Source: a virus
Length of the DNA: 64,000 nucleotides
IMG/VR virus record: IMGVR_UViG_3300043548_000582
Coordinates: 25,235-89,234 of that record
Strand: one strand, 5' to 3'
Position numbers and translations under genes: made by a program. The notes beneath the pieces were generated by a model, which did no database searches, was not told the origin of the DNA, and saw only the letters and a program-made list of their open reading frames with translations. Each line of letters begins with the position of its first letter. The stretch's first letter is position 1. Below are positions 2,739 to 19,157 of the stretch, piece by piece.

Positions 2739-3034
2739 ACGCAGATCCATCCAACAGTATGATAGAAAATGAACAATGGCATTTGTTTTTATGCTATTGC
2801 ACATTTATAGTAAACATTCAAGGTAAGAAAATGTCTGTGCAGAATGTTTTCGTACATACGCTACAAAATGATAAAATGCGAAACTTATTGAAAAAATTAC
2901 TGTGCATGGACACTGACTTCGATGTTGTTAAAATGTTTTTGGATTTTGATCCCAGCCTTGTCAAGAGCAAGTATGTGACCAAATATCTAAATAATCGAAC
3001 TAAAACTTCGAAAAAAGTTGGGAAAACATCTTGA
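2735..3034 (+). CDS. hypothetical protein
   Basis: 99-aa ORF, ATGA overlap with upstream gene. Confidence 0.7.
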   Translation: MNADPSNSMIENEQWHLFLCYCTFIVNIQGKKMSVQNVFVHTLQNDKMRNLLKKLLCMDTDFDVVKMFLDFDPSLVKSKYVTKYLNNRTKTSKKVGKTS

Positions 3035-3058
3035 CTTATCGAGTTTTTGGATTAAATT
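3031..3058 (+). promoter_or_regulatory. sigma70-like promoter
   Basis: TTGACT-N16-TAAATT upstream of the small membrane ORF and gp32. Confidence 0.45.
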
Positions 3059-3083
3059 AAATGGGTAAGAAGAATCTGACCGA

Positions 3084-3263
3084 ATGAAAACTCTAATATA
3101 CTTTATTTTGATTTTGATACTACTGAAAGTGTTAAAATTGATTGAATTAAGTTGGTTTTGGATTTTGGCTCCGGTATTTTTACCAGTCTCCATCGTATCG
3201 GCACTTTGTCTAATTGCCGCTATTTGGACGACAATTCGCATATATAAACTAATAAAAGAATAA
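3084..3263 (+). CDS. small two-helix membrane protein (59 aa, missed by the ORF track)
   Basis: Manual translation MKTLIYFILILILLKVLKLIELSWFWILAPVFLPVSIVSALCLIAAIWTTIRIYKLIKE; LK..I..SW.W..P pattern of a common phage membrane protein; fills the gap before gp32. Confidence 0.75.
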   Translation: MKTLIYFILILILLKVLKLIELSWFWILAPVFLPVSIVSALCLIAAIWTTIRIYKLIKE

Positions 3264-3267
3264 AAAA

Positions 3268-4158
3268 ATGAGTACTAAAAATAAATTCAATGCTAGCATG
3301 TTTGAAAAGATTAAGGACGCCCTTAATAAAACCACTGAAACTTCCAATAGCGCATTTTCGAATGTGATGAAGTTTCCCGCTGGGAAGACATACACGCTTC
3401 GTATAGTTCCTAATCTGGAAGACCCTGAGAAGACATTCTTCCATCACTATACACACGGTTGGAAGAGCAAGACTACCGGTAGTTATATCTCAACGCTATC
3501 ACTGCAAACATTCGGTGAGCGCGATCCAATCACCGAAACATTCTGGTCACTCATCAAGAGTGATGACAAGAATGAGAAAGAACTTGGTAAAGTTATTCGC
3601 CGCAAGGAGAATTGGTTTGTCAATGTTTATGTAATCGATGATCCATCAAATCCTGACAACAATGGAACTGTCAAGATTTTGAAAATTGGACCACAGATCA
3701 AAAAGATCATCGATGATGCCCTTACCGGAGATGGCGCAGAAGAATTCGGTTATCGAATCTTCGATCTTGGTGAAGATGGTGCAAACCTCAAGATCAAAGC
3801 TGAAACCAGTGGAGATTTCGTAACATTTGCATCTTCTGGCTTCTACAACAAGCCTCAGATCAAGCTATCAGATGAACAAATCGATAAGATTTACGAATCT
3901 GCACATGATCTGGAAGCCATCTATCCCAAGAAGACAGTTGATGAGCTTCAAGAAATCTTGGATGTTCATTTTTACGGAAAGAGTGGTGGAAAGACTTCCA
4001 CACCCAAGACTACAAATGCAACACTGAAGCAACCACCAGTTCTAGATGATGACGATGTGAATGATGATATTCCATTCGATTTCCCATCCAAAACAAGTGG
4101 TTCAAGTGAACCAAGTGAAGATGATATCGATAAAATGCTAGCCGACCTAGAAGACTAA
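3268..4158 (+). CDS. 32: single-stranded DNA-binding protein (T4 gp32 family)
   Basis: LRIVP, NVYVIDDP.NP.NNG.VKI, IFD..GANLKIK, acidic C-tail DDIDKMLADLED. Confidence 0.9.
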   Translation: MSTKNKFNASMFEKIKDALNKTTETSNSAFSNVMKFPAGKTYTLRIVPNLEDPEKTFFHHYTHGWKSKTTGSYISTLSLQTFGERDPITETFWSLIKSDDKNEKELGKVIRRKENWFVNVYVIDDPSNPDNNGTVKILKIGPQIKKIIDDALTGDGAEEFGYRIFDLGEDGANLKIKAETSGDFVTFASSGFYNKPQIKLSDEQIDKIYESAHDLEAIYPKKTVDELQEILDVHFYGKSGGKTSTPKTTNATLKQPPVLDDDDVNDDIPFDFPSKTSGSSEPSEDDIDKMLADLED

Positions 4159-4161
4159 TAT

Positions 4162-4602
4162 ATGTTAACACCTGAAGATAAAAAAGTATTATTGGATTTT
4201 GCTGGCCCACTCTTTGCTCAAAGTAAAGAGATCGATTCGATGTATTACAACGACTCGAAGCCAAAAACTGATGGTATTGAAGATTCAGGTATCGCGTATG
4301 GAATTCAAAAGGCGCTTGAGAGAGATTTCGCAAACTCTCAAGCGCCTCGTCGCGTCGAAGCTGCTCATGTACCCATGCCTCAGTATATTCCAATTCCACA
4401 GCATATACCAGCTCCGATGCCTCAATACGCGCCTCCTGTTCCTCAACAAGATCCAGACCAGTTGGAGTTTAAGTTCAACGTAACCGAGCAAGAAAAAACA
4501 AACACGTTGTTGGAAGCTCAAAATAAACTCATCAAACAGTTGATAACCAAGATCGATAAGCTAATATCCATTTCAAATGAAAGCACAAAAGCTAAAACTT
4601 AA
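4162..4602 (+). CDS. hypothetical protein with Pro/Gln-rich linker and C-terminal coiled coil
   Basis: PMPQY repeated twice; tightly packed in the replication cluster. Confidence 0.65.
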   Translation: MLTPEDKKVLLDFAGPLFAQSKEIDSMYYNDSKPKTDGIEDSGIAYGIQKALERDFANSQAPRRVEAAHVPMPQYIPIPQHIPAPMPQYAPPVPQQDPDQLEFKFNVTEQEKTNTLLEAQNKLIKQLITKIDKLISISNESTKAKT

Positions 4603-5302
4603 CAAATCTGATTTCTTATTCTTTCTGGATTCACTATCCAAGCTCAGCGATTCCGCCATTCTAACTATTAAAGATGGCGGAATTTCCGCATTAAGTACTA
4701 ATATAGATGCGTCGTTGTTTTTGTGGAATTCAATGCCAGTCGAGTGTGACGATGATATAAGCACTCTCAATATACCTTCACTATCAAAGCTTAAATCAGC
4801 GTTGGATTTGTGTGAATCGTCCGAGTTTATTGAGTTGACCCTCAATAGAAACAACCTTGAGTATCGGGGATCTTCTGTGAAGTTTAAATATCACCTCCAC
4901 GAAGATGGGGTTCTCATGAAGAGCAAGACCAGTCTGGAAAAGCTCAAGAGTTTGAAGTATGATATATCCACAGTCTTTTCAAGAAGCTTTTTGAAATCTT
5001 TCTTGAAGGCAGCTACTTCTTTTTCAAAAATCACCAAATTACACTTGTATACTGATGATGATCATCTGATGTGGTCATTAAAGGATTCAACCATAGCAAA
5101 CAGCGATGTATTCACTATGAAAGGCAACGAAGTTGACTTTGAGTTGGATTCTTTAATTCTGAACATAGACAATATACGTCTAATGCAGTTCCCAACTGAT
5201 AATATCAATTTAAAAATAAACACATCACTTGGAATTGCTAAAATTGAGTTGAAATATGGGAGCGTCGATCTAAATTATACTATATCAAGTTTAATAAAAT
5301 GA
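4577..5302 (+). CDS. 45: DNA polymerase sliding clamp (gp45-like)
   Basis: 241 aa, two-domain alpha/beta pattern (LNIPSLSKL, LNIDNIRL), position beside gp32. Confidence 0.7.
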   Translation: MKAQKLKLNKSDFLFFLDSLSKLSDSAILTIKDGGISALSTNIDASLFLWNSMPVECDDDISTLNIPSLSKLKSALDLCESSEFIELTLNRNNLEYRGSSVKFKYHLHEDGVLMKSKTSLEKLKSLKYDISTVFSRSFLKSFLKAATSFSKITKLHLYTDDDHLMWSLKDSTIANSDVFTMKGNEVDFELDSLILNIDNIRLMQFPTDNINLKINTSLGIAKIELKYGSVDLNYTISSLIK

Positions 5303-8607: not shown

Positions 8608-8847
8608 ATGCAAAACGTAAATATAAAACTGAAAAACGGCAAAGTCGAAATCATGGATGCAGTTTCATTCTCCAGATGGGTTTGTCTGGTCGAAGCTTTC
8701 GACATTATTTTTGAAAAAGCCGCTCAGCTCAATTTGGATATTGAGAGCTTTATAAAACCCGTCGCCATCGAACACTACATCAACGAAAGATTCGATTCTG
8801 TTCTGTGTGATGTGAAGTATGAATTGGAGAATGGTTTATTGAACTGA
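8608..8847 (+). CDS. hypothetical protein
   Basis: 79-aa ORF. Confidence 0.65.
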   Translation: MQNVNIKLKNGKVEIMDAVSFSRWVCLVEAFDIIFEKAAQLNLDIESFIKPVAIEHYINERFDSVLCDVKYELENGLLN

Positions 8848-9663
8848 TAACTCTCGCTCAATTCGTTCAATTGTCTCTTTACCAAGAGAAGGTTCGAAGT
8901 GTGCTTTTAGTTCAGTTGTATCCAAATCTAGTTCTTTGAATCCGATGAGATAATTTTTGAATCTTTGGTCTAGCTGATTTGGGTACGACACACCTTCTGG
9001 TCTATAAAATCGATGGCACCACCTTAAAAACGGCAGGCATAGTGTTCGCTTGCCGTTTTTTCTGTATTTTTCGTGGATGTATCCTTCTTCACCACCAAAT
9101 CCCCTGAACTTTGTATTGAATCCTAACCATGAATCTTTTCTACATGAAAATAATCCAAGACCCTGCGCGGGTATCTCAAAAGGAACTCCGTTAGGATCTT
9201 CGCCTCGCTCATCATTACCCCACACCCCCCACATATTTGACCTCCAAACGAGATCAAAATGGGTAGAAGTTCCTTTAAGATTGTCATAAACCAATGGTCC
9301 TTGTAATAAATTGCCGTCATCTTCATTGTTATCATAAAAGTCTATTAATTTTTTAAGAGATCCCGGTTCTAGAAGAACATGACTGTCTATACTTAGCACA
9401 TAAGGTGTCTCAGCAAGATCAAAAATTTTATTTCTGACAATAGTCGATTTATAATTTGTGAAAGGAAAGTATTGCACTGGTTCATCAACCCAATCTAAAA
9501 ATTCCCGTATGCATTTGGAATGTGTTCCAGATGGATTATTGTCAATCACGACAAATTCGACATTATCCATCACTTCTTTGTGAAATAATCTGATTGATTG
9601 TATTGTGAAATACAAACCGTCCAGATCATCATGAACTGCCATCCCAATTGTAAGTTTCCTCAT
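8836..9663 (-). CDS. GT-A glycosyltransferase with polypeptide-GalNAc-transferase-like motifs
   Basis: GT2-type N-terminus (TIGMAVHD, VVIDNN, RNKIF), SIDSHV (DxH), GLGLFS...GFGGEEG, WCHRFYRP..YP. Confidence 0.85.
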   Translation of the reverse strand: MRKLTIGMAVHDDLDGLYFTIQSIRLFHKEVMDNVEFVVIDNNPSGTHSKCIREFLDWVDEPVQYFPFTNYKSTIVRNKIFDLAETPYVLSIDSHVLLEPGSLKKLIDFYDNNEDDGNLLQGPLVYDNLKGTSTHFDLVWRSNMWGVWGNDERGEDPNGVPFEIPAQGLGLFSCRKDSWLGFNTKFRGFGGEEGYIHEKYRKNGKRTLCLPFLRWCHRFYRPEGVSYPNQLDQRFKNYLIGFKELDLDTTELKAHFEPSLGKETIERIERELSVQ

Positions 9664-9674
9664 ATTTTAATTTA

Positions 9675-9989
9675 TTAAAAATTGAGTTTTTTGCAAGTAT
9701 TTTCAACACATTCAGATGTTGTCGATGTGTTTAATGGAATTATCGTGGTGGTTGTAGTTGTGGTAGTAGTTGCTGGGAGGGTTGTGTTTATAGTCGATGG
9801 ATCTGTTAATGAAGGAGACGGGGGGATTCTTACTTTCATTATCGGAGGTAGTGGAAACGGTGATTTTGTTGTATTTTCGACCGGAGGAGGGAATATATAC
9901 TTTATTTTAGGAGGACAGCACGGTATTTTTGGAGTTGCCGTTGTTGTCGAAGTAGTGGTCGGTTCTGGTGTTGTACCTGTCGTTTCCAT
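9675..9989 (-). CDS. mucin-like Thr/Pro-rich protein B
   Basis: Thr runs, PCCPP, C-terminal CVENTCKKLNF; paralogue of 9992..10465. Confidence 0.75.
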   Translation of the reverse strand: METTGTTPEPTTTSTTTATPKIPCCPPKIKYIFPPPVENTTKSPFPLPPIMKVRIPPSPSLTDPSTINTTLPATTTTTTTTTIIPLNTSTTSECVENTCKKLNF

Positions 9990-9991
9990 AA

Positions 9992-10465
9992 TTAATATCC
10001 TAATTTATTAACACATGGTTTGCAAATTATACTGACTGTTGTGGATGTTGATGTCGATGTTGTAGTTATCGGCTGTATCGTAGTTGGAGTGATAGTTGTA
10101 GTTGATATAATCGAAGATGGGTCCGTCAATGGATAGCTCGGAGGAACTTTGACGGTTATGGCTTCAGGAAGAGGCGTCGGGGTTTTCGTAGTTACTATTA
10201 CCGGTTCAGGAGGATGCTCTATAATCAACTCAGGGCAACTTAAACATGGGTAGCATGTCGTAGATCCCGGAATTGGGGGTGGTGTCGTGGCTGTAGTTCC
10301 AGTGGTAGTACTTGTTGTTGTACTTGTGAGTGGGGGGGTAGTTGTAGTGGTAGTAGTTGTAGTGGTAGTAGTTGTGGTACTACCTGAAGGTGGCGGGGTA
10401 GTTGTAGACGAACCCTCTGGTGGAGGTGTAGTTTCGTCTGGTGGAGGTGTAGTTTCGTCTGGCAT
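9992..10465 (-). CDS. mucin-like Thr/Pro-rich protein A
   Basis: PDETTPP x2, long poly-Thr run, CYPCLSCP, C-terminal CKPCVNKLGY; 2-nt gaps to both neighbours. Confidence 0.75.
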   Translation of the reverse strand: MPDETTPPPDETTPPPEGSSTTTPPPSGSTTTTTTTTTTTTTTPPLTSTTTSTTTGTTATTPPPIPGSTTCYPCLSCPELIIEHPPEPVIVTTKTPTPLPEAITVKVPPSYPLTDPSSIISTTTITPTTIQPITTTSTSTSTTVSIICKPCVNKLGY

Positions 10466-10467
10466 AC

Positions 10468-11232
10468 TTACATCCTGTTAAATTCGACTGTTTCTACAGT
10501 TGTTGCATTTTCGGTTCCTTGTGTGTGAAAATTTTTCAAAAACAAAACACTTGGAGCACTTAATGACGAGATAGGAGATGAATATGAAAAACCGGGTCTA
10601 AATATGTCAGCGGAATCAGGATTGAAATTTATATTAATCGAAGTTAATTCTATGAATTCAGTTGATCCGTCTGGTTTAAAATCTATAGTGATCTTATCAG
10701 TGTTTGTATATTTAAATCGCATGGTTTTGTACGACTTGCCACTTGATAATATCTTAAATTCTGGATTTATATTTGAAAGTTCATTATAGTATGTAACATT
10801 ATCATTAAAATCTCTTATAATTAAACTATTTCGTTTTATACTACCTAAACCAACACCGCTTCGAGTATTTGATGATAAAGCAAACAATCCAGTGGTGTCA
10901 AATGCTATACAAATCCCTAGAATTGAATCACTTTCCCCATTACCTTCGAGTATTATGCGTTCATAATTTTCAGTTAATATGTAATTTCCATCTTCATCTA
11001 GTAAAAAACCAGATAAGGGAACAGTTCCGCTATATCCCAAATAATGACCCGGAATTGAAGACAGAGATGGTTTTGTTGATGTTAAGAAAGTTGCAAATGC
11101 AGCTTCATTACCAGATATAGCATACTGAAAACTCCAAATTATGTCATAATTTGGGTTGTAGTTCTTTTTTTCATCTACAAATGCTATATATTTTGCATTT
11201 GCTGGTAATTTAACATCAGATGGAAAGCTCAT
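10468..11232 (-). CDS. putative L-type (ConA-like) lectin-fold virion protein
   Basis: beta-rich; GHYLGY, ICIAFDT (cf. legume lectin AVEFDT), PGFS. Confidence 0.5.
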   Translation of the reverse strand: MSFPSDVKLPANAKYIAFVDEKKNYNPNYDIIWSFQYAISGNEAAFATFLTSTKPSLSSIPGHYLGYSGTVPLSGFLLDEDGNYILTENYERIILEGNGESDSILGICIAFDTTGLFALSSNTRSGVGLGSIKRNSLIIRDFNDNVTYYNELSNINPEFKILSSGKSYKTMRFKYTNTDKITIDFKPDGSTEFIELTSININFNPDSADIFRPGFSYSSPISSLSAPSVLFLKNFHTQGTENATTVETVEFNRM

Positions 11233-11233
11233 A

Positions 11234-12778
11234 TTATAAAGTATAACCGATTAGTCGCACGCTACCATTCTCGTCAGAGTTTCCTATCGACACTCGAAGT
11301 GCAAAAGATGAAGAATTTCCGTTTGAACTCAGGGGAATCATGCATTGAGTGGTTGAAGTGGAACCTCCGTAAAATTTTGTGCTTGATTTATTTATCAAAT
11401 ATTCATTTACACCAACAACGTAGAGATTTGTTGGTGTATTTAAAAGTGATGTATTTAAAGCAGCACATATTATGCCTTGCTGACCATTATTCGTTAAATT
11501 CAACGTACTTTCCAGCAAGACCGTTTTCGCATTCGCTGGTAATGTTTGCGGCAATGCTAATATGGTAGGATAAACTGTAATAGTTGACGTTTCAGACATA
11601 TTACTAGTTACAGTTTTTACAGTGATTGGAGTTTTCAAGAATTTCACATATCCTGAAGAATTTACTATCTCTGTACCTGAAAGCGTGGTTACAACACCAG
11701 CTGATACAAATGGAACTGAGCTTACTCTTCCATAATCATCAACAATAAATGGAGTTTCCACAGTTGTTGATGGTATAATTGGCGGTAAACCAATTTGTAT
11801 ATTGCCACTCAACGTGCTGACAGGAGTTCCAGTTACAGTAACTCCATTCAATGTTCCAGATAGTGTATTTCTAACAGTGAGGGTCGATGTTACTAAATTA
11901 TCAGCGATAGCTTTGATAATGAAATTGGTCCCGACTGCACTCAAGGATACATTAGTTCCACTGTTCAAGCTAAACGTTGTCGAAGATGCTGGGTCTCCAG
12001 TTACCCCATACAATGTTTTATTTGTTAAATTAGGAACATTGAAGTTTCCACCAGAGCCTCCGTAAGTGGTGCCTATGGCGGCGGATAGATCTGGGTATAC
12101 TGATCCTGAAACACTCTGACCATTGCATAGAAGCCATCCATAAGGAACAGTTCCTCCAGAAACAAACGGTGTTATCATACCTACAGGTATTCTGGATGCA
12201 GAATTACTTACATAAAATGTATTAAGAGAAAGCGGAGTCGCCCAAGATAGATTTCCATAGATATCTGTTGATAAAAAGAAATCATTTTGTAATCCACCAG
12301 ATGGCCATTTATAATTGACAGATTCTATCGATAGTTTGGACGGCAATGATAGATATTCAGAGTTATATGGTGAAATTCTGTTTGTTGAGATCCCACCACC
12401 GCTCAAGTTTAAAGTATTCGTGGATGCGTCGATGTCAATACTGTTACCTGCTGTGTAAACAGATCCTACAACTCTCCAATTATTGATATCTGTATATAAA
12501 TTCCCATTGAATTTACATAAAGTTTTGTTCACAGTATTGAATACCAAGTCTCCTACCTGTGCATATGAGAAAGTAATGGGATTACCTTCGCCCAAATATT
12601 TATTACCAGCGACTAGACCACCGAGAGTTGAGCCATCTCCGATAAACAATCTATCAATGTCGGTTGCATATCCAAGTTCACCGCTATCTAGAAGTATAAG
12701 TTTTCTGTCTGAATCCTGTCCTTGACGAACGATGAGTTTCAGAAGAGTATTTTGGAGGATTTCAATTGAATTTGACAT
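11234..12778 (-). CDS. tail fibre with Mtd-N-like head and tail-collar domain
   Basis: VRQG..R...L.SGELGYATD..RLFIGDG; collar IPVGMI..GWLLCNGQ..YPDL..IGTTYG..FNVPNL. Confidence 0.85.
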   Translation of the reverse strand: MSNSIEILQNTLLKLIVRQGQDSDRKLILLDSGELGYATDIDRLFIGDGSTLGGLVAGNKYLGEGNPITFSYAQVGDLVFNTVNKTLCKFNGNLYTDINNWRVVGSVYTAGNSIDIDASTNTLNLSGGGISTNRISPYNSEYLSLPSKLSIESVNYKWPSGGLQNDFFLSTDIYGNLSWATPLSLNTFYVSNSASRIPVGMITPFVSGGTVPYGWLLCNGQSVSGSVYPDLSAAIGTTYGGSGGNFNVPNLTNKTLYGVTGDPASSTTFSLNSGTNVSLSAVGTNFIIKAIADNLVTSTLTVRNTLSGTLNGVTVTGTPVSTLSGNIQIGLPPIIPSTTVETPFIVDDYGRVSSVPFVSAGVVTTLSGTEIVNSSGYVKFLKTPITVKTVTSNMSETSTITVYPTILALPQTLPANAKTVLLESTLNLTNNGQQGIICAALNTSLLNTPTNLYVVGVNEYLINKSSTKFYGGSTSTTQCMIPLSSNGNSSSFALRVSIGNSDENGSVRLIGYTL

Positions 12779-14587: not shown

Positions 14588-16297
14588 TCAAGATAAATCC
14601 ACTAGTTTCTTTTGCAGATCATTTATCAATGTGAATATTCGCTGCAAAGATACAACATTTACATTCTCGTTACCGTTTAATATCAAGTTAGTCAACTCAT
14701 AAGTTAATTCAGGCGTTGGAATTACAGATAATGTTGGATTTGCCAAATCTCCAGTGCTTGATTTCACCTTTTCAACGATGGTTGCGATGTTGATGGTATC
14801 AATTAGGAGATTTGTGATGATTGAATTGAAAGAAATACCAACGCTGCTCGTATTACATTTTATCCCCGTGAATGCTTTTGATACATTTAATGGCACATAG
14901 GTTTCATACAACGAAGATCTGGTTTTAGATATGTATATACGCCCGATGTTATGCATTATGTAATACAGATATCCATTTTTTTGGATTGTATTGTACGTCA
15001 AGTTGTTGTAACTGTTTGACAACATCTTGTTTGAATTGAACTTTATTTGGATATCGTTTATGTTTTCTTCGGTTTTGTTTATGATATAATCATTTAAATA
15101 GAAGAAATTTGAAGATCTAGCTTTAGCCAATCTGTTATTTATGTTTAAAAGCGGGCGAATTTCGGTTTCCGCTCTAGGTTGATCCGATTGTTCTATCTGG
15201 GTGATGGTCTTTTTCAGATAAAAGAAGTCAGAGTCCTCTGTTGAAAACTCAATTCCTGTAGCTTCGTCGGCATATAACAATTCTTCACGACGAAATGTGT
15301 TTGTGTAATCATCGCTATCGAAAAATATGAAATAATAGAGTCCATTCTTCTGACCGACTGCTATTACATTGTCGTCTTCTTTTCTTATGTCAATTGCTAT
15401 GAGATTATCTAGATCCAAATCACTCAATGATAGTTGTAATAGGATTTCATTTGAATATTTGTTTTTCAAATACAGAACATTCCCACTGTATTCTGTTCGC
15501 TTGTTGAATCCTATCGTATATAATCCTATATTTTCAGAGTTGGCCGAAATTGAAATGCTATCTTTTAAAAATAGATTGCTACAATCTTCGTATTTTGATA
15601 AATTATATATTAAAAGTTCAGAATTTGTATAAAAATACAATTCATCAGAATCATAATCCTGTTCAATTTTTAAATTTACTGAGTTTTCAGCCTGACTGAC
15701 TATTGTTAATTTCTTAGATGGATCGTTGAAAGTCCCGCTTAGAGCGTATGTGATATTATCAGACACACAATAGTATATGAAATTGTCATTGGCGTCTATT
15801 ATGAAAGAACCAGACTCCACTCTATCCAAGAATGCCCATTCTTTAGAATAACTAAATGGATCGCTGTGTGTATACACGTTTTTCCCATACATTTCATCAT
15901 CCGGTGTTCTAGAATCAGCCTCTGTTGAAGTTAATGTATAAAAGTAGGTGTTTTTGTAGTCGTAAGGAACATTGTTTGGATTTATGAAAATTGAATTTTT
16001 ATAAATTTTCAAATTATTCTCATCAATGCGTCCGAATAACTCATTCAAGGTGTTGTCGTTTAGTATATCCAACGCATTTGGAACTGCTAAATCGATAGTT
16101 GGTGTGATTCCATCGAAAACAGCATAATTTAAATACAAATCACTTAAAAAGTTTGATTTTGGAGTCAATTCTCTGGATTCATAGCTTGGTTTTTTACCAG
16201 AATATGCAACGCCGCTCAACACATGGAAATAGCCACTGTAAGGAGCTGAATCCAGTGTGAATGCATTGCCATCATCATATTTGAAATAAGAAATCAT
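14588..16297 (-). CDS. putative baseplate/virion structural protein
   Basis: 569 aa, beta-rich, within baseplate operon. Confidence 0.6.
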   Translation of the reverse strand: MISYFKYDDGNAFTLDSAPYSGYFHVLSGVAYSGKKPSYESRELTPKSNFLSDLYLNYAVFDGITPTIDLAVPNALDILNDNTLNELFGRIDENNLKIYKNSIFINPNNVPYDYKNTYFYTLTSTEADSRTPDDEMYGKNVYTHSDPFSYSKEWAFLDRVESGSFIIDANDNFIYYCVSDNITYALSGTFNDPSKKLTIVSQAENSVNLKIEQDYDSDELYFYTNSELLIYNLSKYEDCSNLFLKDSISISANSENIGLYTIGFNKRTEYSGNVLYLKNKYSNEILLQLSLSDLDLDNLIAIDIRKEDDNVIAVGQKNGLYYFIFFDSDDYTNTFRREELLYADEATGIEFSTEDSDFFYLKKTITQIEQSDQPRAETEIRPLLNINNRLAKARSSNFFYLNDYIINKTEENINDIQIKFNSNKMLSNSYNNLTYNTIQKNGYLYYIMHNIGRIYISKTRSSLYETYVPLNVSKAFTGIKCNTSSVGISFNSIITNLLIDTINIATIVEKVKSSTGDLANPTLSVIPTPELTYELTNLILNGNENVNVVSLQRIFTLINDLQKKLVDLS

Positions 16298-18507
16298 ATG
16301 TAATTTGTGAATTTTATGTTATTTATAATTGAAGTTGCTGGAATGTTTTGTTGGATCTTGTCCAACATGACGTTTTTCAGATATTCCAGAGTATCAGAGT
16401 TACTGATTCCTAAATTATCAATCGATACATTGATATAATTACTCTTATTTGAATTCCCATTGCAAATTGTCTGGATATGTTTGATATCATCGAGAGAATT
16501 TCTCATTCCACATGGTAGAGTGATAACAATATCATCAACCGCTTGCCTGTTTTGTATAAATGGAATTATAAATGCTAAATTCTCATCAATTTTTTGATCT
16601 GCTATTATTATATCGGTTGTTATACCATTCGGCTCTAAAAGATCTTGATCGTTGTAATAAAATTTACCATATATGATCGATTTGTTGGAAAATTGAGCGA
16701 TTTCAGTTGATATATCCAACACTTTGGCGTTATTTAAAAAGAAGAATCCTTTTCCAGTCAGGGCATCATAACTGAAACAAACGAAATTATCTTTGTACTT
16801 CTTATAAAGTGTCGTTGCGTCGAATATCAAGGTTTGATTATTTGAATTATTGAATAATTTCAATTCAAATGTTATATCATCCGCTGTTTTTGTAATTTTT
16901 ACCCCAGCATCTATATTATTTCGAAGACTTTGGATAGTCCACTCTGGATCAGATCCATTAAAGTAAAACGATAGCGTTATCTTGCCAGCATCATTGATCA
17001 AATTTTGATAATTTAATGGGATTTGATTTGCTCCACCACAATCGACAGTGTTTGTTGCTGTAATAATATCGAATAATTCATTGTTATTGAATCTGTGGTA
17101 TTCGTATTTTCTATTAGGTTGAAAGCTCAGATCACTACGCTTGTCAAAAATCACATATTTCGAAACATTTGAACTCAATGTTGCGTTTGTTGTGATTAAA
17201 TTTTCAATTGCCTGATCATATGTGATATCAAACACGCCTTTTTCAGACAATGCATTCTTCTTGGATATCAAATCCGGGTAGAAGTATCGATCAACCCATG
17301 TTTTAGTTTCACCTACACCTGATAACCATGTGCATAGATAAACCTTTCCATCTTCTGAATAGTTGTTTGTGTCTATTTGATAGATTTTATCAGCATATTG
17401 TGGAGTGTCGTATCCATATGATCCACAATCCACGAATCTGGTGTCATTTATATTCAGATTGCTGAATGGATACATACTTGAAGGAGCCTGAAATTCAGTG
17501 ATACCTCGTCTTATTAAATAAGGTTTGTTGTAAAATACGTAATTTAAAGAAAGTTCAGATGAATTTTCAGAATCAATTGTGTTTGTTATATTTGTATAAT
17601 TTCTGAAATCATCAACCGCTATGTCATATCCAGATGATAGAAGATTCTGACCGTTTGTGAATACATCACTTACAGTTAGTTGATTTTTTAAAACGATAAT
17701 GTCTTTATATTCAGATGAGTATGGAGAATGAATTAAAAAGTTGTTGCTTAAATCAAACTCACTTTTAGAAGAATCGATTATATTCGAAGCATTCTGATAT
17801 GTCACGAATGATGTGTTTGGAGATACTTCAAGTTTATATTCTTTAGGTCTAGCGACTTTGAAATTGCTTGTTAGGATTGTATTTTTGTTTTCATCATTCA
17901 ATTCAATCAATACAAGCCCATCGCCTTCTTTCTTTACCAGTTTATTACTGGAAAGAGCCTTTATAAGAAATAGTTCTTTCTTGTCGTTGTATATGTATTT
18001 GAAAAATTGAGGATTTTGCTCATCCTCTTCATCGGGAAGTAGAACATCCCATTTAAATAACAGATCGCCACTATCTTCACTTAGTAGATAAGTTTTTCCA
18101 GATTCTATAAATGATATTGTGCATAAATTATTTTGATAAAAGTCCAAATCAAAATATGTTCGTTCGCTTAATTCATCATCGAATGTTATGGAATAAGTAT
18201 TTGCATTTGCAATCGGTGTTGATCTTGACAAATAAACAGATCCAGATTGCAAATAAGTCAGAAGTTTTTCTGATTTTAAAGTATTTGTGTTGAATTTTAA
18301 AAAAGTATCTGCTCTTGTATTATTCGTCAGATAAAAGTTTGAATATTCTTTGGTTTTGAAATCATTAAAACCGGAAAGCGCCAAAGGGAAATTGAAAGAA
18401 AATCCGTTTTGATATGTTCGTCTTACTTGTTTATAAGAAGTATTATCCATCGTTGACTTCCATGATTTAGAAGTCAACGATGATAGAGATTTTATGATCG
18501 TTTCCAT
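16294..18507 (-). CDS. putative baseplate protein, possible C-terminal LamG/ConA-like domain
   Basis: 737 aa; ITLSFYF..FVCFSYD..G...FFLNN pattern; TAAATA at 18513-18518. Confidence 0.6.
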   Translation of the reverse strand: METIIKSLSSLTSKSWKSTMDNTSYKQVRRTYQNGFSFNFPLALSGFNDFKTKEYSNFYLTNNTRADTFLKFNTNTLKSEKLLTYLQSGSVYLSRSTPIANANTYSITFDDELSERTYFDLDFYQNNLCTISFIESGKTYLLSEDSGDLLFKWDVLLPDEEDEQNPQFFKYIYNDKKELFLIKALSSNKLVKKEGDGLVLIELNDENKNTILTSNFKVARPKEYKLEVSPNTSFVTYQNASNIIDSSKSEFDLSNNFLIHSPYSSEYKDIIVLKNQLTVSDVFTNGQNLLSSGYDIAVDDFRNYTNITNTIDSENSSELSLNYVFYNKPYLIRRGITEFQAPSSMYPFSNLNINDTRFVDCGSYGYDTPQYADKIYQIDTNNYSEDGKVYLCTWLSGVGETKTWVDRYFYPDLISKKNALSEKGVFDITYDQAIENLITTNATLSSNVSKYVIFDKRSDLSFQPNRKYEYHRFNNNELFDIITATNTVDCGGANQIPLNYQNLINDAGKITLSFYFNGSDPEWTIQSLRNNIDAGVKITKTADDITFELKLFNNSNNQTLIFDATTLYKKYKDNFVCFSYDALTGKGFFFLNNAKVLDISTEIAQFSNKSIIYGKFYYNDQDLLEPNGITTDIIIADQKIDENLAFIIPFIQNRQAVDDIVITLPCGMRNSLDDIKHIQTICNGNSNKSNYINVSIDNLGISNSDTLEYLKNVMLDKIQQNIPATSIINNIKFTNYI

Positions 18508-18515
18508 TTAAATAT

Positions 18516-19157
18516 TTAAGGCGGTAGCGTAGTTGTTGTCGTAACCGGACCCGGTGTGGTTGTTGATGTTGGACCCGGTGTGGTTGTTGGGGACGGTGTG
18601 GTTGTGGATGCTGGTATCGGGGGTGTTGGTGGTGGGGTTGTCGTATTTAAGCTTTCAGCTTCTACTAAGAACCCTCCTTTATCCACAGAAAATATAAACT
18701 GTTTGTTGTTATCAGATACTTGCATAATATTTGCATATATATGCTTCATATCCCCGATACTTTCAAAATAATCGGATGTTATTATTTTGAAAGGTTGCAC
18801 TATTGAACATTTGTCACCATTTATATATTCTATATTGACTTCGGCAGATAATAATTTATATCTGGATGTTTCTGATGGATAATAGAGGTGGGATACTTCA
18901 TTTGAAAGTATTGAACTTATTTTATTATAAAGTATTTCTGGAATTATACTGTCAACTCTGTAGTCTTTACTGAATGAATTTTCAAAAATAGCAGACTCTC
19001 CATCACCCCAATTGATTCTTAGATACATGGGAATTTCAGACTCTGATATCCCACTCAATACAAAGGTCACAGAAGTCAAATCATACAGTTTGACTTCTGG
19101 TAATGTTGAAGATAGTGCGGTTGCTGAACTAGCAAATCCAATTGTGTAAGTATTCAT
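18516..19157 (-). CDS. PKD-like virion protein with mucin-like C-terminal tail
   Basis: INWGDG, SHLY; tail TTTPPPTPP..TTTPGPTSTTTPGPVTTTTTLPP. Confidence 0.7.
   Translation of the reverse strand: MNTYTIGFASSATALSSTLPEVKLYDLTSVTFVLSGISESEIPMYLRINWGDGESAIFENSFSKDYRVDSIIPEILYNKISSILSNEVSHLYYPSETSRYKLLSAEVNIEYINGDKCSIVQPFKIITSDYFESIGDMKHIYANIMQVSDNNKQFIFSVDKGGFLVEAESLNTTTPPPTPPIPASTTTPSPTTTPGPTSTTTPGPVTTTTTLPP

What the first reader, a model, noticed from the sequence alone, without database searches (positions are those of the whole stretch)
9675..10465. Two paralogous mini-mucins with a conserved core and Cys caps
Seen: both proteins have the layout Thr-run, Cys cluster (PCCPP / CYPCLSCP), conserved core (TTKSPFPLPPIMKVRIPPSPSLTDPSTI vs TTKTPTPLPEAITVKVPPSYPLTDPSSI), Thr-run, then a C-terminal two-Cys cap (CVENTCKKLNF / CKPCVNKLGY). 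Protein A starts with a 21-bp tandem duplication (PDETTPP x2). Neither has a signal peptide. Inference: Cys-flanked PTS domains recall gel-forming mucins; the core or Cys residues may anchor them to the virion or cross-link after lysis, while the Thr tracts vary in length by slippage.
Basis: partly seen in the sequence, partly recalled or inferred. Interest (0 to 1): 0.75.

Follow-up and report, generated by a model that had tools for sequence, protein, structure and literature searches.

The report
Minimal phage mucin-like glycosylation-tag proteins
Two tiny threonine/proline-rich genes at the end of a large aquatic phage's tail-fibre operon are real, conserved genes: they are the stripped-down form of a C-terminal module that related phages attach to proteins of up to about 1,400 residues, always just upstream of an enzyme shaped like the animal enzymes that start mucin sugar coats, so they are most likely that enzyme's substrates, though no sugar has been measured.

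Summary
A profile built only from A-type orthologues finds all B-types at 17-38 bits, against 3.1 bits or less for 1,400 shuffles. The C-terminal 95 codons are under purifying selection (dN/dS 0.06-0.24). The Thr tracts vary in frame through tandem duplications.

The proteins are not a stand-alone family. They are minimal members of a roughly 100-aa C-terminal module: Cys cluster, Pro-rich core, poly-Thr, then C-x3-5-C-[NK]-x-L-x-[FY]-COOH. In 56 of 80 related loci this module ends proteins of 85-1370 aa with unrelated N-terminal domains. These genes always lie between a possibly lectin-like 254-aa gene and a GT2 gene.

The GT2 model (pLDDT 94) is closest to polypeptide GalNAc-transferases (Z 23 and 22, next family 18). 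AlphaFold gives the module no globular fold.

Best reading (0.55): these are extended mucin-like acceptors of the adjacent cytoplasmic O-glycosyltransferase, mounted at the fibre or baseplate periphery. Glycosylation and virion location are both inferred.

The resemblance to gel-forming mucins is compositional only. This scan has already met the transferase/poly-Thr pairing on other phage DNA. The module, its invariant terminus and the cargo-less forms are what this report adds.

The parts
9992..10465 (-). Mini-mucin A, 157 aa (64% Pro+Thr+Ser). It is an A-type member of the module family and ends in ...CKPCVNKLGY.
   Evidence: ORF. Orthologues. dN/dS 0.06-0.24.
10416..10462 (-). 21-bp tandem duplication (PDETTPP x2) at the N-terminus of A. 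Relatives start MADETTFPPD... with a single copy, so the duplication is specific to this phage.
   Evidence: Tandem repeat search. Relatives.
10256..10415 (-). N-terminal Thr/Pro tract of A. It contains a 15-bp x2.5 repeat (10338-10375) and a 60-bp x2.2 repeat (10275-10407). This is the hypervariable part of the protein.
   Evidence: In one search the contig of a roughly 92% identical strain breaks here and continues with unlike sequence.
10232..10255 (-). Cys cluster of A (CYPCLSCP, residues 71-78).
10106..10231 (-). Pro-rich conserved core of A (residues 79-120: ELIIEHPPEPVIVTTKTPTPLPEAITVKVPPSYPLTDPSSII).
10025..10105 (-). Thr/Ser tract of A (residues 121-147) between the core and the cap.
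9995..10024 (-). C-terminal cap of A (CKPCVNKLGY-COOH).
9675..9989 (-). Mini-mucin B, 104 aa (54% Pro+Thr+Ser). It is a B-type member and ends in ...CVENTCKKLNF.
9915..9920 (-). Cys pair of B (C24-C25 in KIPCCPP).
9789..9914 (-). Pro-rich conserved core of B (residues 26-67). This is the stretch with the highest pLDDT (85-90) in the AlphaFold model, but it has no secondary structure.
9714..9788 (-). Poly-Thr tract of B (residues 68-92, including T74-T82). A Thr run at this position occurs across the whole module family.
9678..9710 (-). C-terminal cap of B (C94-x4-C99-K-K-L102-N-F104). C94 and L102 are invariant and C99 is at least 90% conserved across 45 diverse modules.
8836..9663 (-). Soluble 275-aa GT-A glycosyltransferase (Pfam Glycos_transf_2). 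Its predicted fold is closest to polypeptide GalNAc-transferases. D93-S-H95 is invariant. It is the probable modifying enzyme.
10468..11232 (-). 254-aa protein conserved upstream of the module gene(s) in 46 of the 80 loci. It may be L-type-lectin-like, which is a weak lead only.
   Evidence: No PDB or Pfam match for the window's own copy.
18516..18650 (-). The third and only other dense Pro/Thr/Ser tract in the window. It is a 45-aa C-terminal tail on a 213-aa protein in the baseplate gene run, has no Cys cap, and may be a further acceptor.

Best explanation
The two ORFs are genuine genes in the tail-fibre operon. Each encodes an extended, non-globular, mucin-like polypeptide.

They are cargo-less, minimal members of a family defined by a C-terminal module of about 100 aa: (Cys cluster) - Pro-rich hydrophobic core - poly-Thr run - C-x3-5-C-[N/K]-x-L-x-[F/Y]-COOH. 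In related phages the same module ends proteins of 85 to about 1,370 aa that carry unrelated N-terminal domains. All of this is shown.

The inferred steps are these:
- The soluble GalNAc-T-like glycosyltransferase encoded directly downstream O-glycosylates the Thr tracts in the host cytoplasm.
- The invariant C-terminus and/or the core serves as the docking or anchoring element.
- The glycosylated module sits at the fibre or baseplate periphery, possibly held by the lectin-like 254-aa neighbour. It forms a sugar-coated stalk or brush.
- In this phage the stalk displays nothing but itself.

The N-terminal Thr tracts act as length-variable spacers that grow and shrink by tandem duplication.
For: Real genes:
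- Intergenic gaps are 2 nt in a same-strand run that also holds gp10-like, Mtd_N and Collar fibre genes.
- Synteny is conserved in relatives.
- dN/dS is 0.06-0.24 over the last 95 codons, with synonymous sites near saturation.

Family:
- The cap pattern matches 69 of 4,869 six-frame ORFs in 80 transferase-centred loci. All 69 lie on the transferase strand, upstream of it, in 56 of the 80 loci.
- The module aligns across 45 diverse members.
- In four complete genomes of about 200 kb it occurs only in this slot.
- A transferase-independent DNA scan for ...CNKLGY-TAA in IMG/VR found 22 real module ends. Those that directly precede the transferase, or whose locus reaches about 4.6 kb downstream, have the transferase on the same strand. 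The others have too little flank to tell.
- Cap presence follows the transferase tree: 4 changes against 15.9 expected from shuffled labels.

Enzyme:
- The AlphaFold model has pLDDT 93.9.
- All the listed rows of Foldseek's top 50 PDB hits are polypeptide GalNAc-transferases, best E=2.4e-14, TM 0.74.
- VIA-align gives Z 23.1 and 22.0 for GalNAc-T1 and Toxoplasma GalNAc-T3, against 18.4 for the next family.
- D93-x-H95 is invariant in 30 homologues.
- There is no N-terminal hydrophobic segment, so the enzyme should be cytoplasmic, which fits substrates that lack a signal peptide.

Substrate-like character:
- The proteins are 54-64% Pro+Thr+Ser with Thr far exceeding Ser.
- A poly-Thr run lies just before the cap in most aligned members.
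- AlphaFold predicts an extended chain with no secondary structure, pTM 0.19.

Anchor logic:
- The N-termini are unrelated between clades. They range from nothing, to a roughly 90-aa domain in L009/L010, to a Beta_helix domain in the 1,370-aa L066 protein.
- The C-terminal module stays conserved throughout.

Precedent: phage-encoded glycosylation of the C-termini of capsid and tail-tube subunits in mycobacteriophages (Freeman et al. 2023, as cited in PMC12619734).
Against: - No glycan, transcript or virion proteome was examined, so glycosylation and virion location both rest on gene context and fold.
- The transferase family is far wider than the module. There are 2,261 clusters at 90% identity. 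It also occurs without any cap gene: next to DNA polymerase, inside transferase clusters, or beside other Pro/Thr/Ser-rich proteins. It cannot therefore depend on the cap.
- Co-inheritance along the tree is expected for linked genes and does not prove coupling.
- The mini-proteins have no recognisable virion-attachment domain.
- The lectin-like call for the 254-aa protein is weak.
- Fold similarity to GT27 does not fix the acceptor or the sugar.
Confidence: 0.55

Rival explanations
1. The proteins are unglycosylated structural adaptors. The Pro-rich core and Cys cap bind a virion partner, close a disulfide loop or hold a metal, and the Thr/Pro tracts are only stiff spacers. The neighbouring transferase acts on other targets, such as other virion proteins or host surface polymers.
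For: - The transferase occurs in many loci without a cap gene.
- The only sequence-level PDB hit of the transferase profile is TarP, a wall-teichoic-acid GlcNAc-transferase, E=9e-4, N-terminal half only.
- The core has the highest pLDDT of the model and stays extended, as a partner-binding peptide would.
- The variable-cargo, conserved-C-terminus architecture needs an anchor but does not need sugar.
Against: - Where the locus reaches far enough, no cap gene was found away from the transferase, and in most loci it directly precedes it.
- The poly-Thr run next to the cap is conserved as Thr rather than as any flexible residue.
- The transferase's whole-chain fold is closest to protein O-GalNAc transferases by 4-5 Z units over polysaccharide and teichoic-acid enzymes.
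Confidence: 0.2
2. The proteins are glycosylated but not virion-bound. They are small soluble mucin-like glycopeptides released at lysis, or acting inside the infected cell. They might serve as decoys that mask receptors or debris, or as lubricating or protective material for progeny.
For: - A and B have no N-terminal domain and no recognisable attachment domain.
- They have no predicted fold.
- They are the last structural-operon genes before the enzyme.
Against: - The same module ends large fibre- or spike-like proteins, for example a 1,370-aa protein with a Beta_helix domain, which are typical virion parts.
- The genes lie inside a tightly packed fibre/baseplate gene run.
- A conserved extreme C-terminus is more typical of a docking element than of a free peptide.
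Confidence: 0.12
3. The proteins are precursors of glycocin-like ribosomal glycopeptides: small Cys-containing peptides that a GT2-family enzyme S- or O-glycosylates into an antimicrobial product.
For: The proteins are small, carry two Cys groups and sit next to a Pfam Glycos_transf_2 enzyme.
Against: - The glycocin S-glycosyltransferase SunS ranks far below the GalNAc-transferases (Z 12.6 against 23.1).
- There is no double-glycine leader, transporter or thiol-disulfide oxidoreductase gene in the slot.
- The same module sits on proteins of more than 1,000 aa.
- Only the two cap Cys are universal.
Confidence: 0.03
4. The ORFs are not real genes but chance open frames in low-complexity DNA.
For: The composition is low-complexity, and the opposite strand also has long Val/Gly-rich open frames.
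Against: - Purifying selection: dN/dS 0.06-0.24.
- Conserved synteny, and indels only in multiples of three.
- Thr and Pro codon usage resembles the neighbouring structural genes.
- The specific C-terminus is conserved across transferase lineages down to about 58% identity.
Confidence: 0.01

Closest known systems
Mucin-type O-glycosylation by polypeptide GalNAc-transferases (CAZy GT27; e.g. GalNAc-T1/T2, Toxoplasma GalNAc-T3) acting on Pro/Thr/Ser mucin domains
   Same: - The acceptor-like proteins are 54-64% Pro/Thr/Ser, repeat-bearing and unstructured.
- The adjacent enzyme's predicted fold is closest to GT27 catalytic domains (Z 22-23, 248-256 of 275 residues aligned).
- The enzyme has an invariant D-x-H.
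   Different: - The enzyme has only 275 aa. It lacks the ricin-type lectin domain and the membrane anchor, so it should be cytoplasmic rather than Golgi-located.
- Identity is 14-18%, and no sequence-level PDB hit to GT27 was found.
- Donor sugar and linkage are unknown.
- The acceptors are phage proteins with a conserved Cys-capped C-terminus that has no counterpart in animal mucins.
Mycobacteriophage virion glycosylation (Freeman et al. 2023, Cell Host Microbe 31:1216; as described in PMC12619734)
   Same: Phage-encoded glycosyltransferases modify the C-terminal regions of the phage's own structural proteins.
   Different: - There the targets are the capsid and tail-tube subunits themselves, in actinobacteriophages.
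- Here the candidate targets are dedicated module proteins at the end of the fibre operon of a T4-like aquatic phage.
- Here the enzyme is GalNAc-T-like, and nothing has been shown experimentally.
Gel-forming mucins (MUC2/MUC5AC type)
   Same: Pro/Thr/Ser tracts are flanked by Cys-containing segments, and tract length varies through repeats.
   Different: - There are no VWD, C8, TIL or cystine-knot domains (Pfam found nothing).
- Each protein has 4-5 Cys, and only 2 are conserved family-wide.
- The proteins are 104-157 aa rather than thousands of residues, and have no secretion signal.
- The resemblance is compositional and is not homology.
Phage T4 Hoc-type decoration proteins (N-terminal displayed domains, C-terminal virion-binding part; comparison from general knowledge)
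   Same: The architectural logic across the family matches: variable N-terminal displayed domains, a linker, and a conserved C-terminal part.
   Different: - No sequence or Pfam relation was found.
- The gene location is the fibre/baseplate operon, not the capsid genes.
- The window's two members have no displayed domain at all.

Membership tests
Cap-module family defined here (phage C-terminal Pro/Thr/Ser module ending C-x3-5-C-[NK]-x-L-x-[FY]) | C-terminus C-x(2-5)-C-x(1-2)-L-x-[FY]-stop, preceded by a Thr-rich run | tested here: met
   A ends CKPCVNKLGY and B ends CVENTCKKLNF. Both align with 43 other modules, with C94 and L102 invariant.
Cap-module family defined here (phage C-terminal Pro/Thr/Ser module ending C-x3-5-C-[NK]-x-L-x-[FY]) | Gene lies upstream of the GalNAc-T-like GT2, on the same strand, at the end of the fibre operon and after the 254-aa gene | tested here: met
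   Window gene order. The same order holds in relatives.
Gel-forming mucins | VWD/C8/TIL assemblies and a C-terminal cystine-knot domain | tested here: not met
   Pfam finds no family in A or B at E<=0.01. The proteins are too short to hold such domains.
Gel-forming mucins | Central Pro/Thr/Ser tandem-repeat domain | tested here: met
   54-64% Pro+Thr+Ser. Tandem repeats of 15, 21 and 60 bp.
Gel-forming mucins | Dense O-glycosylation of the Pro/Thr/Ser domain | not testable with these tools
   This needs mass spectrometry or glycan staining of expressed or virion protein.
GT27 polypeptide GalNAc-transferases (for the neighbouring enzyme 8836-9663) | GT-A catalytic fold of the GT27 type | tested here: met
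   Every listed row of Foldseek's top 50 PDB hits is a GalNAc-transferase. VIA-align gives Z 23.1 and 22.0 against 18.4 for the next family.
GT27 polypeptide GalNAc-transferases (for the neighbouring enzyme 8836-9663) | D-x-H metal-binding motif | tested here: met
   D93-S-H95 is invariant in 30 homologues. That it is equivalent to the GT27 motif is inferred from position; no residue-level superposition was made.
GT27 polypeptide GalNAc-transferases (for the neighbouring enzyme 8836-9663) | C-terminal ricin-type lectin domain and N-terminal membrane anchor | tested here: not met
   The protein has 275 aa, all aligned to the catalytic domain only. Pfam finds only Glycos_transf_2.
GT27 polypeptide GalNAc-transferases (for the neighbouring enzyme 8836-9663) | Transfers GalNAc from UDP-GalNAc to Ser/Thr of a polypeptide | not testable with these tools
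   This needs an enzyme assay.
Glycocins (sublancin/glycocin F type) | Short precursor with a leader peptide, two nested disulfides, a SunS-like S-glycosyltransferase, and a transporter or oxidoreductase nearby | tested here: not met
   SunS scores Z 12.6 against 23.1 for GalNAc-T1. The neighbours are fibre genes and three small conserved unknown genes. The module also occurs on proteins of more than 1,000 aa.
L-type (legume-like) lectins (for the neighbouring 254-aa protein) | Legume-lectin beta-sandwich domain | tested here: inconclusive
   ESM-feature neighbours carry Lectin_leg-like or Lectin_legB at scores of 0.90 or less. One of 28 homologues hits Lectin_legB at E=0.0026. The window's own copy has no Pfam or PDB sequence hit.

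The most novel reading that the evidence does not exclude
The module is a portable 'glyco-anchor tag'. The GalNAc-T-like enzyme docks on the invariant C-terminal cap and glycosylates the adjacent poly-Thr. The lectin-like 254-aa protein on the fibre or baseplate then captures the glycosylated tag. In this way any N-terminal cargo domain (beta-helix enzyme, small beta-sandwich, or nothing) is mounted on the virion through a sugar-lectin bond that the phage itself encodes. The cargo-less mini-mucins of this phage would then fill or tune those sites and form a bare glycan brush.
Probability: 0.12. Interest if true: 0.9.

Novelty: new variant of a known kind. Interest (0 to 1): 0.62.

Why it matters
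If the reading holds, a widespread clade of large aquatic T4-like phages carries its own mucin-type glycosylation cassette. The transferase family alone has more than 2,200 clusters at 90% identity. The cassette would consist of a dedicated, modular acceptor tag and a GalNAc-T-like enzyme.

That would have three consequences:
- It would extend phage virion glycosylation, so far shown in mycobacteriophages, to a new enzyme type and a new phage group.
- It would place the GT27-like fold in a cytoplasmic, lectin-domain-free viral context.
- It would supply a compact natural tag of about 100 aa for testing how such an enzyme finds its substrate.

The 104-aa and 88-aa members are ideal minimal substrates for a co-expression experiment in E. 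coli.

The variable-cargo slot also looks like a hotspot for exchanging surface-exposed domains, which bears on host range and particle behaviour in water.

My full-text searches found no published description. This scan, however, has already noted the transferase/poly-Thr pairing in at least eight other phage genomes. The pairing itself is therefore not new to the scan. The conserved cap module and its minimal forms are what is added here.

Tried and rejected
Searches that found nothing:
- Pfam, PHROGs and NCBIfam give nothing for A, B or the window's 254-aa protein.
- An exhaustive profile search with the close-family alignment found only 5 representatives among 1.84 billion proteins. That profile was too narrow. 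The wider family was found only through synteny with the transferase.
- The GenBank phage collection has no DNA match to the region and no tblastn match to the 254-aa protein or the transferase. No cultured relative is therefore available. The sheath protein only reaches about 37-47% identity to pelagiphage and cyanophage sheaths.
- PDB sequence searches gave nothing for the 254-aa protein. For the transferase they gave only a weak hit to TarP.

Tools and papers not available:
- The Freeman 2023 paper is not held. It is cited through PMC12619734.
It was corrected.

Tests that were uninformative:
- AlphaFold on B with 45 module sequences gave an extended chain with no fold.
- The T4-type late promoter motif TATAAATA is not enriched: 5 found against 7.35 expected. 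One copy lies 23 nt upstream of the ORF start at 16297. Sigma-70 and terminator scans were at chance level.
- No RNA holder was listed among public runs, so expression could not be examined.
- The laid runs were contigs only. Within-population Thr-tract length variation could not be measured beyond one strain's 3-nt insertion and a contig break.

Readings rejected:
- Homology to gel-forming mucins, a glycocin reading and a spurious-ORF reading were all considered and rejected. The reasons are given under the rival explanations and the membership test.
Full report
**1. What is there**

The window is part of an 89-kb IMG/VR contig, estimated 43% complete. It comes from a T4-like myovirus:
- It carries sheath, gp6-like and gp10-like baseplate genes, and Mtd_N and Collar fibre genes.
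- The sheath is 37-47% identical over its C-terminal part to sheaths of pelagiphage Mosig, cyanophages and some Pseudomonas phages.
- No GenBank phage matches the region.
- The public runs that hold the stretch whole are labelled freshwater metagenome and may be its source. An earlier scan note calls the phage marine.

On the minus strand, in a tightly packed run, the genes are:

| Coordinates | Gene |
|---|---|
| 11234-12778 | Collar-domain fibre |
| 10468-11232 | 254-aa unknown protein |
| 9992-10465 | ORF A, 157 aa |
| 9675-9989 | ORF B, 104 aa |
| 8836-9663 | Pfam Glycos_transf_2 enzyme |

The gaps between them are 2, 2 and 11 nt.

**2.

- A is 64% Pro+Thr+Ser and B is 54%.
- The PDETTPP duplication is a perfect 21-bp x2.2 tandem repeat. 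A's Thr tract also holds perfect 15-bp and imperfect 60-bp repeats.
- A and B match at 51% over 39 aa, E=1e-5.
- In a non-circular test, an HMM built from eight A-type orthologues only scored all six B-type proteins at 17-38 bits. The best of 1,400 composition-matched shuffles scored 3.1 bits.
- They are real genes. Close relatives keep both in the same order. Over the last 95 codons pN is 0.07-0.35 while pS is 0.3-0.85, giving dN/dS of 0.06-0.24 where it can be measured. All length differences are in frame.
- Only these two ORFs and the 45-aa tail of a baseplate-region protein (18516-18650) carry dense Pro/Thr/Ser tracts in the 64 kb.

**3. Variable and constant parts**

The N-terminal Thr/Pro tract is the variable part:
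- It is nearly absent in an 88-aa B-type relative.
- It is short in the window.
- It is long and built of 75-84-bp repeats in L003.
- It is a long TTVTTVPP array in L004 and L005.
- A roughly 92% identical strain in an independent run has one extra codon in B's tract. Its contig breaks in A's tract and continues with unlike sequence (contigs only).

The part from the Cys cluster to the C-terminus is the constant part.

**4. The proteins belong to a much larger family**

Direct profile searching found almost nothing: 4 clusters among 5.8 billion proteins and 5 representatives among 1.84 billion.

The neighbouring transferase is abundant and conserved. It has 2,261 clusters at 90% identity, and its top hits are 65-82% identical. 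IMG/VR holds 277 loci.

In the best 80 of those loci:
- The gene or genes directly upstream of the transferase end in C-x(2-5)-C-x(1-2)-L-x-[FY]-stop in 56 loci.
- The pattern matches 69 of 4,869 six-frame ORFs of 30 aa or more. All 69 are on the transferase strand and upstream of it.
- These proteins range from 85 to 1,370 aa, with one to three per locus.
- Most share the C-terminal layout: Pro/Thr/Ser tract, Cys cluster (C-x-P-C or CC, common but not universal), Pro-rich hydrophobic core, poly-Thr run, cap.
- Across 45 diverse modules, two cap positions are invariant (the first Cys and the Leu), and the second Cys is at least 90% conserved.

Their N-terminal regions are unrelated between clades. 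The window's proteins have none. L009 and L010 B-types have a roughly 90-aa domain followed by a (TS)n linker. The 1,370-aa L066 protein has a right-handed Beta_helix (E=1e-12). Others are different again.

Further checks on the linkage:
- In four complete genomes of about 200 kb the module occurs only in this slot.
- A transferase-independent scan of IMG/VR for ...CNKLGY-TAA gave 38 matches in 35 stretches. Twenty-two are real module ends. Those directly preceding the transferase, or in loci that extend about 4.6 kb downstream, have it on the same strand. For the rest the flank is too short to tell. The other 16 matches are short chance frames with no Pro/Thr/Ser tail.
- Gene order is conserved: gp10-like, Mtd_N fibre, collar fibre, 254-aa protein, module gene(s), transferase, then three small convergent genes.
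- On a maximum-likelihood tree of the transferase, cap presence needs 4 changes against 15.9 for shuffled labels. It fills one 33-row clade and most of another. This shows old co-inheritance. It does not by itself show functional coupling.

**5. The enzyme**

- The AlphaFold model is confident: pLDDT 93.9, pTM 0.91.
- Every listed row of Foldseek's top 50 PDB hits is a polypeptide GalNAc-transferase: T1, T2, T4, T7, T10, T12, PGANT9 and Toxoplasma T3. E-values are 2e-14 to 2e-11 and query TM is 0.64-0.74.
- The Foldseek-independent VIA-align search gives the ranking below.

| Structure | Z |
|---|---|
| GalNAc-T1 (256 of 275 residues aligned, rmsd 3.0) | 23.1 |
| Toxoplasma GalNAc-T3 | 22.0 |
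| Chondroitin polymerase K4CP | 18.4 |
| RmlT | 18.2 |
| TarS | 16.8 |
| TarP | 15.8 |
| Glycocin enzyme SunS | 12.6 |

- D93-S-H95 is invariant in 30 homologues.
- At the sequence level only TarP is hit, weakly.
- The enzyme has no lectin domain and no hydrophobic N-terminus. It should act in the cytoplasm, which fits acceptors without signal peptides.

**6. The module itself and the upstream neighbour**

AlphaFold run on B with the 45-sequence alignment gives pLDDT 75.6 but pTM 0.19 and no secondary structure. The chain is extended, and local confidence is highest in the Pro-rich core. That is what one expects of a mucin-like stalk or of a peptide that orders only on a partner.

The 254-aa neighbour resembles L-type lectins only weakly. 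Its protein-language-model neighbours score 0.90 or less. One of 28 homologues hits Lectin_legB at E=0.0026. There are no PDB sequence hits. I treat this as a lead, not a result.

**7. Interpretation**

Shown:
- A and B are real, paralogous genes under purifying selection.
- They are minimal members of a module family.
- The family is strictly linked to a GalNAc-T-like transferase at the end of the fibre operon.
- The Thr tracts are hypervariable.
- The proteins have no globular fold.

Inferred:
- The transferase O-glycosylates the Thr runs.
- The invariant terminus and/or the core is what the enzyme or a virion partner recognises.
- The product sits on the particle periphery.

The main weaknesses are these. 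Nothing biochemical is known. The transferase family also lives without cap genes: next to DNA polymerase, in transferase clusters, or beside other Pro/Thr/Ser-rich proteins ending in ...GSC or ...GSCGC. The mini-proteins have no evident attachment domain.

I put the full reading at 0.55. The rivals are an unglycosylated adaptor (0.20), a glycosylated but non-virion product (0.12), a glycocin-like peptide (0.03) and spurious ORFs (0.01).

**8. Comparison with known systems**

- The system works like mucin-type O-glycosylation, but it is not a GT27 member in the strict sense. It has no lectin domain and no membrane anchor, and identity is 14-18%.
- The proteins are not gel-forming mucins. They have no VWD or cystine-knot domain.
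- The nearest phage precedent is mycobacteriophage virion glycosylation at the C-termini of capsid and tail-tube subunits (Freeman et al. 2023, as described in PMC12619734).
- Full-text searches found no description of a phage GalNAc-T-like enzyme with poly-Thr partners.
- This scan has already reported that pairing in at least eight other phage genomes and on this same stretch. This report adds the conserved cap module, its strict placement, its variable cargo and the cargo-less minimal forms.

Noticed in passing
L009:407-1030 and L010:358-993: The B-type orthologues in two relatives carry an extra N-terminal domain of about 90 aa, then a (TS)n linker, then the conserved module. Pfam finds no family in the extra domain. 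The module can evidently gain or lose N-terminal cargo between close relatives.
   Followed up: partly
L066:876-4988: A 1,370-aa cap-bearing protein directly upstream of the transferase has a right-handed Beta_helix domain (residues 692-852, E=1e-12), as tailspikes and depolymerases do.
   Followed up: partly
L037:5939-7375, L065:3286-4719, L070:1476-3227, L083:3634-4962: In the transferase clade that lacks cap genes, the neighbouring Pro/Thr/Ser-rich proteins end in other Cys-containing termini (...TATTAC, ...STGSC, ...PGSCGC, ...VPGCL). This may be a second kind of C-terminal Cys tag.
   Followed up: no
L073, L080, L085, L088: In some more distant phages the same transferase family (56-62% identity) lies right after an 858-aa ORF that looks like a DNA polymerase (unchecked), and not in the fibre operon.
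   Followed up: no
L067:5827-6957, L075:5824-6969, L081:4107-4970, L089:4107-4970: Where the cap gene is missing, the homologue of the 254-aa protein is longer (287-381 aa) and abuts the transferase. In some loci the two genes are convergent.
   Followed up: no
window 18516-18650 (-): A 213-aa protein in the baseplate gene run ends in a 45-aa Thr/Pro tail (TTTPPPTPPIPASTTTPSPTTTPGPTSTTTPGPVTTTTTLPP) with no Cys cap. It is the only other dense Pro/Thr/Ser tract in the window.
   Followed up: partly
window 16320-16327 (-): A T4-type late-promoter-like TATAAATA lies 23 nt upstream of the ORF that starts at 16297, which heads the minus-strand run ending with A, B and the transferase. The motif is not enriched in the window (5 found against 7.35 expected).
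   Followed up: partly
window 9945 and 10325-10436: A roughly 92% identical strain in an independent freshwater run has one extra codon (GTC) in B's N-terminal tract. Its contig breaks in A's Thr tract and continues with unlike sequence. This rests on contigs only.
   Followed up: partly
window 8800-11300: All four runs that hold the stretch whole are labelled freshwater metagenome, and they may be its source. An earlier scan note calls this phage marine.
   Followed up: no
L022:1-468, 479-1171, 2867-4987; L033:3-377, 382-1182, 1187-2002: Some relatives carry three cap-module genes in a row. Paralogues within one locus tend to have similar caps, for example L035 PICDDGDSCKQLKF and PICDDKDPCKKLKF. 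This suggests repeated local duplication or concerted evolution in the slot.
   Followed up: no
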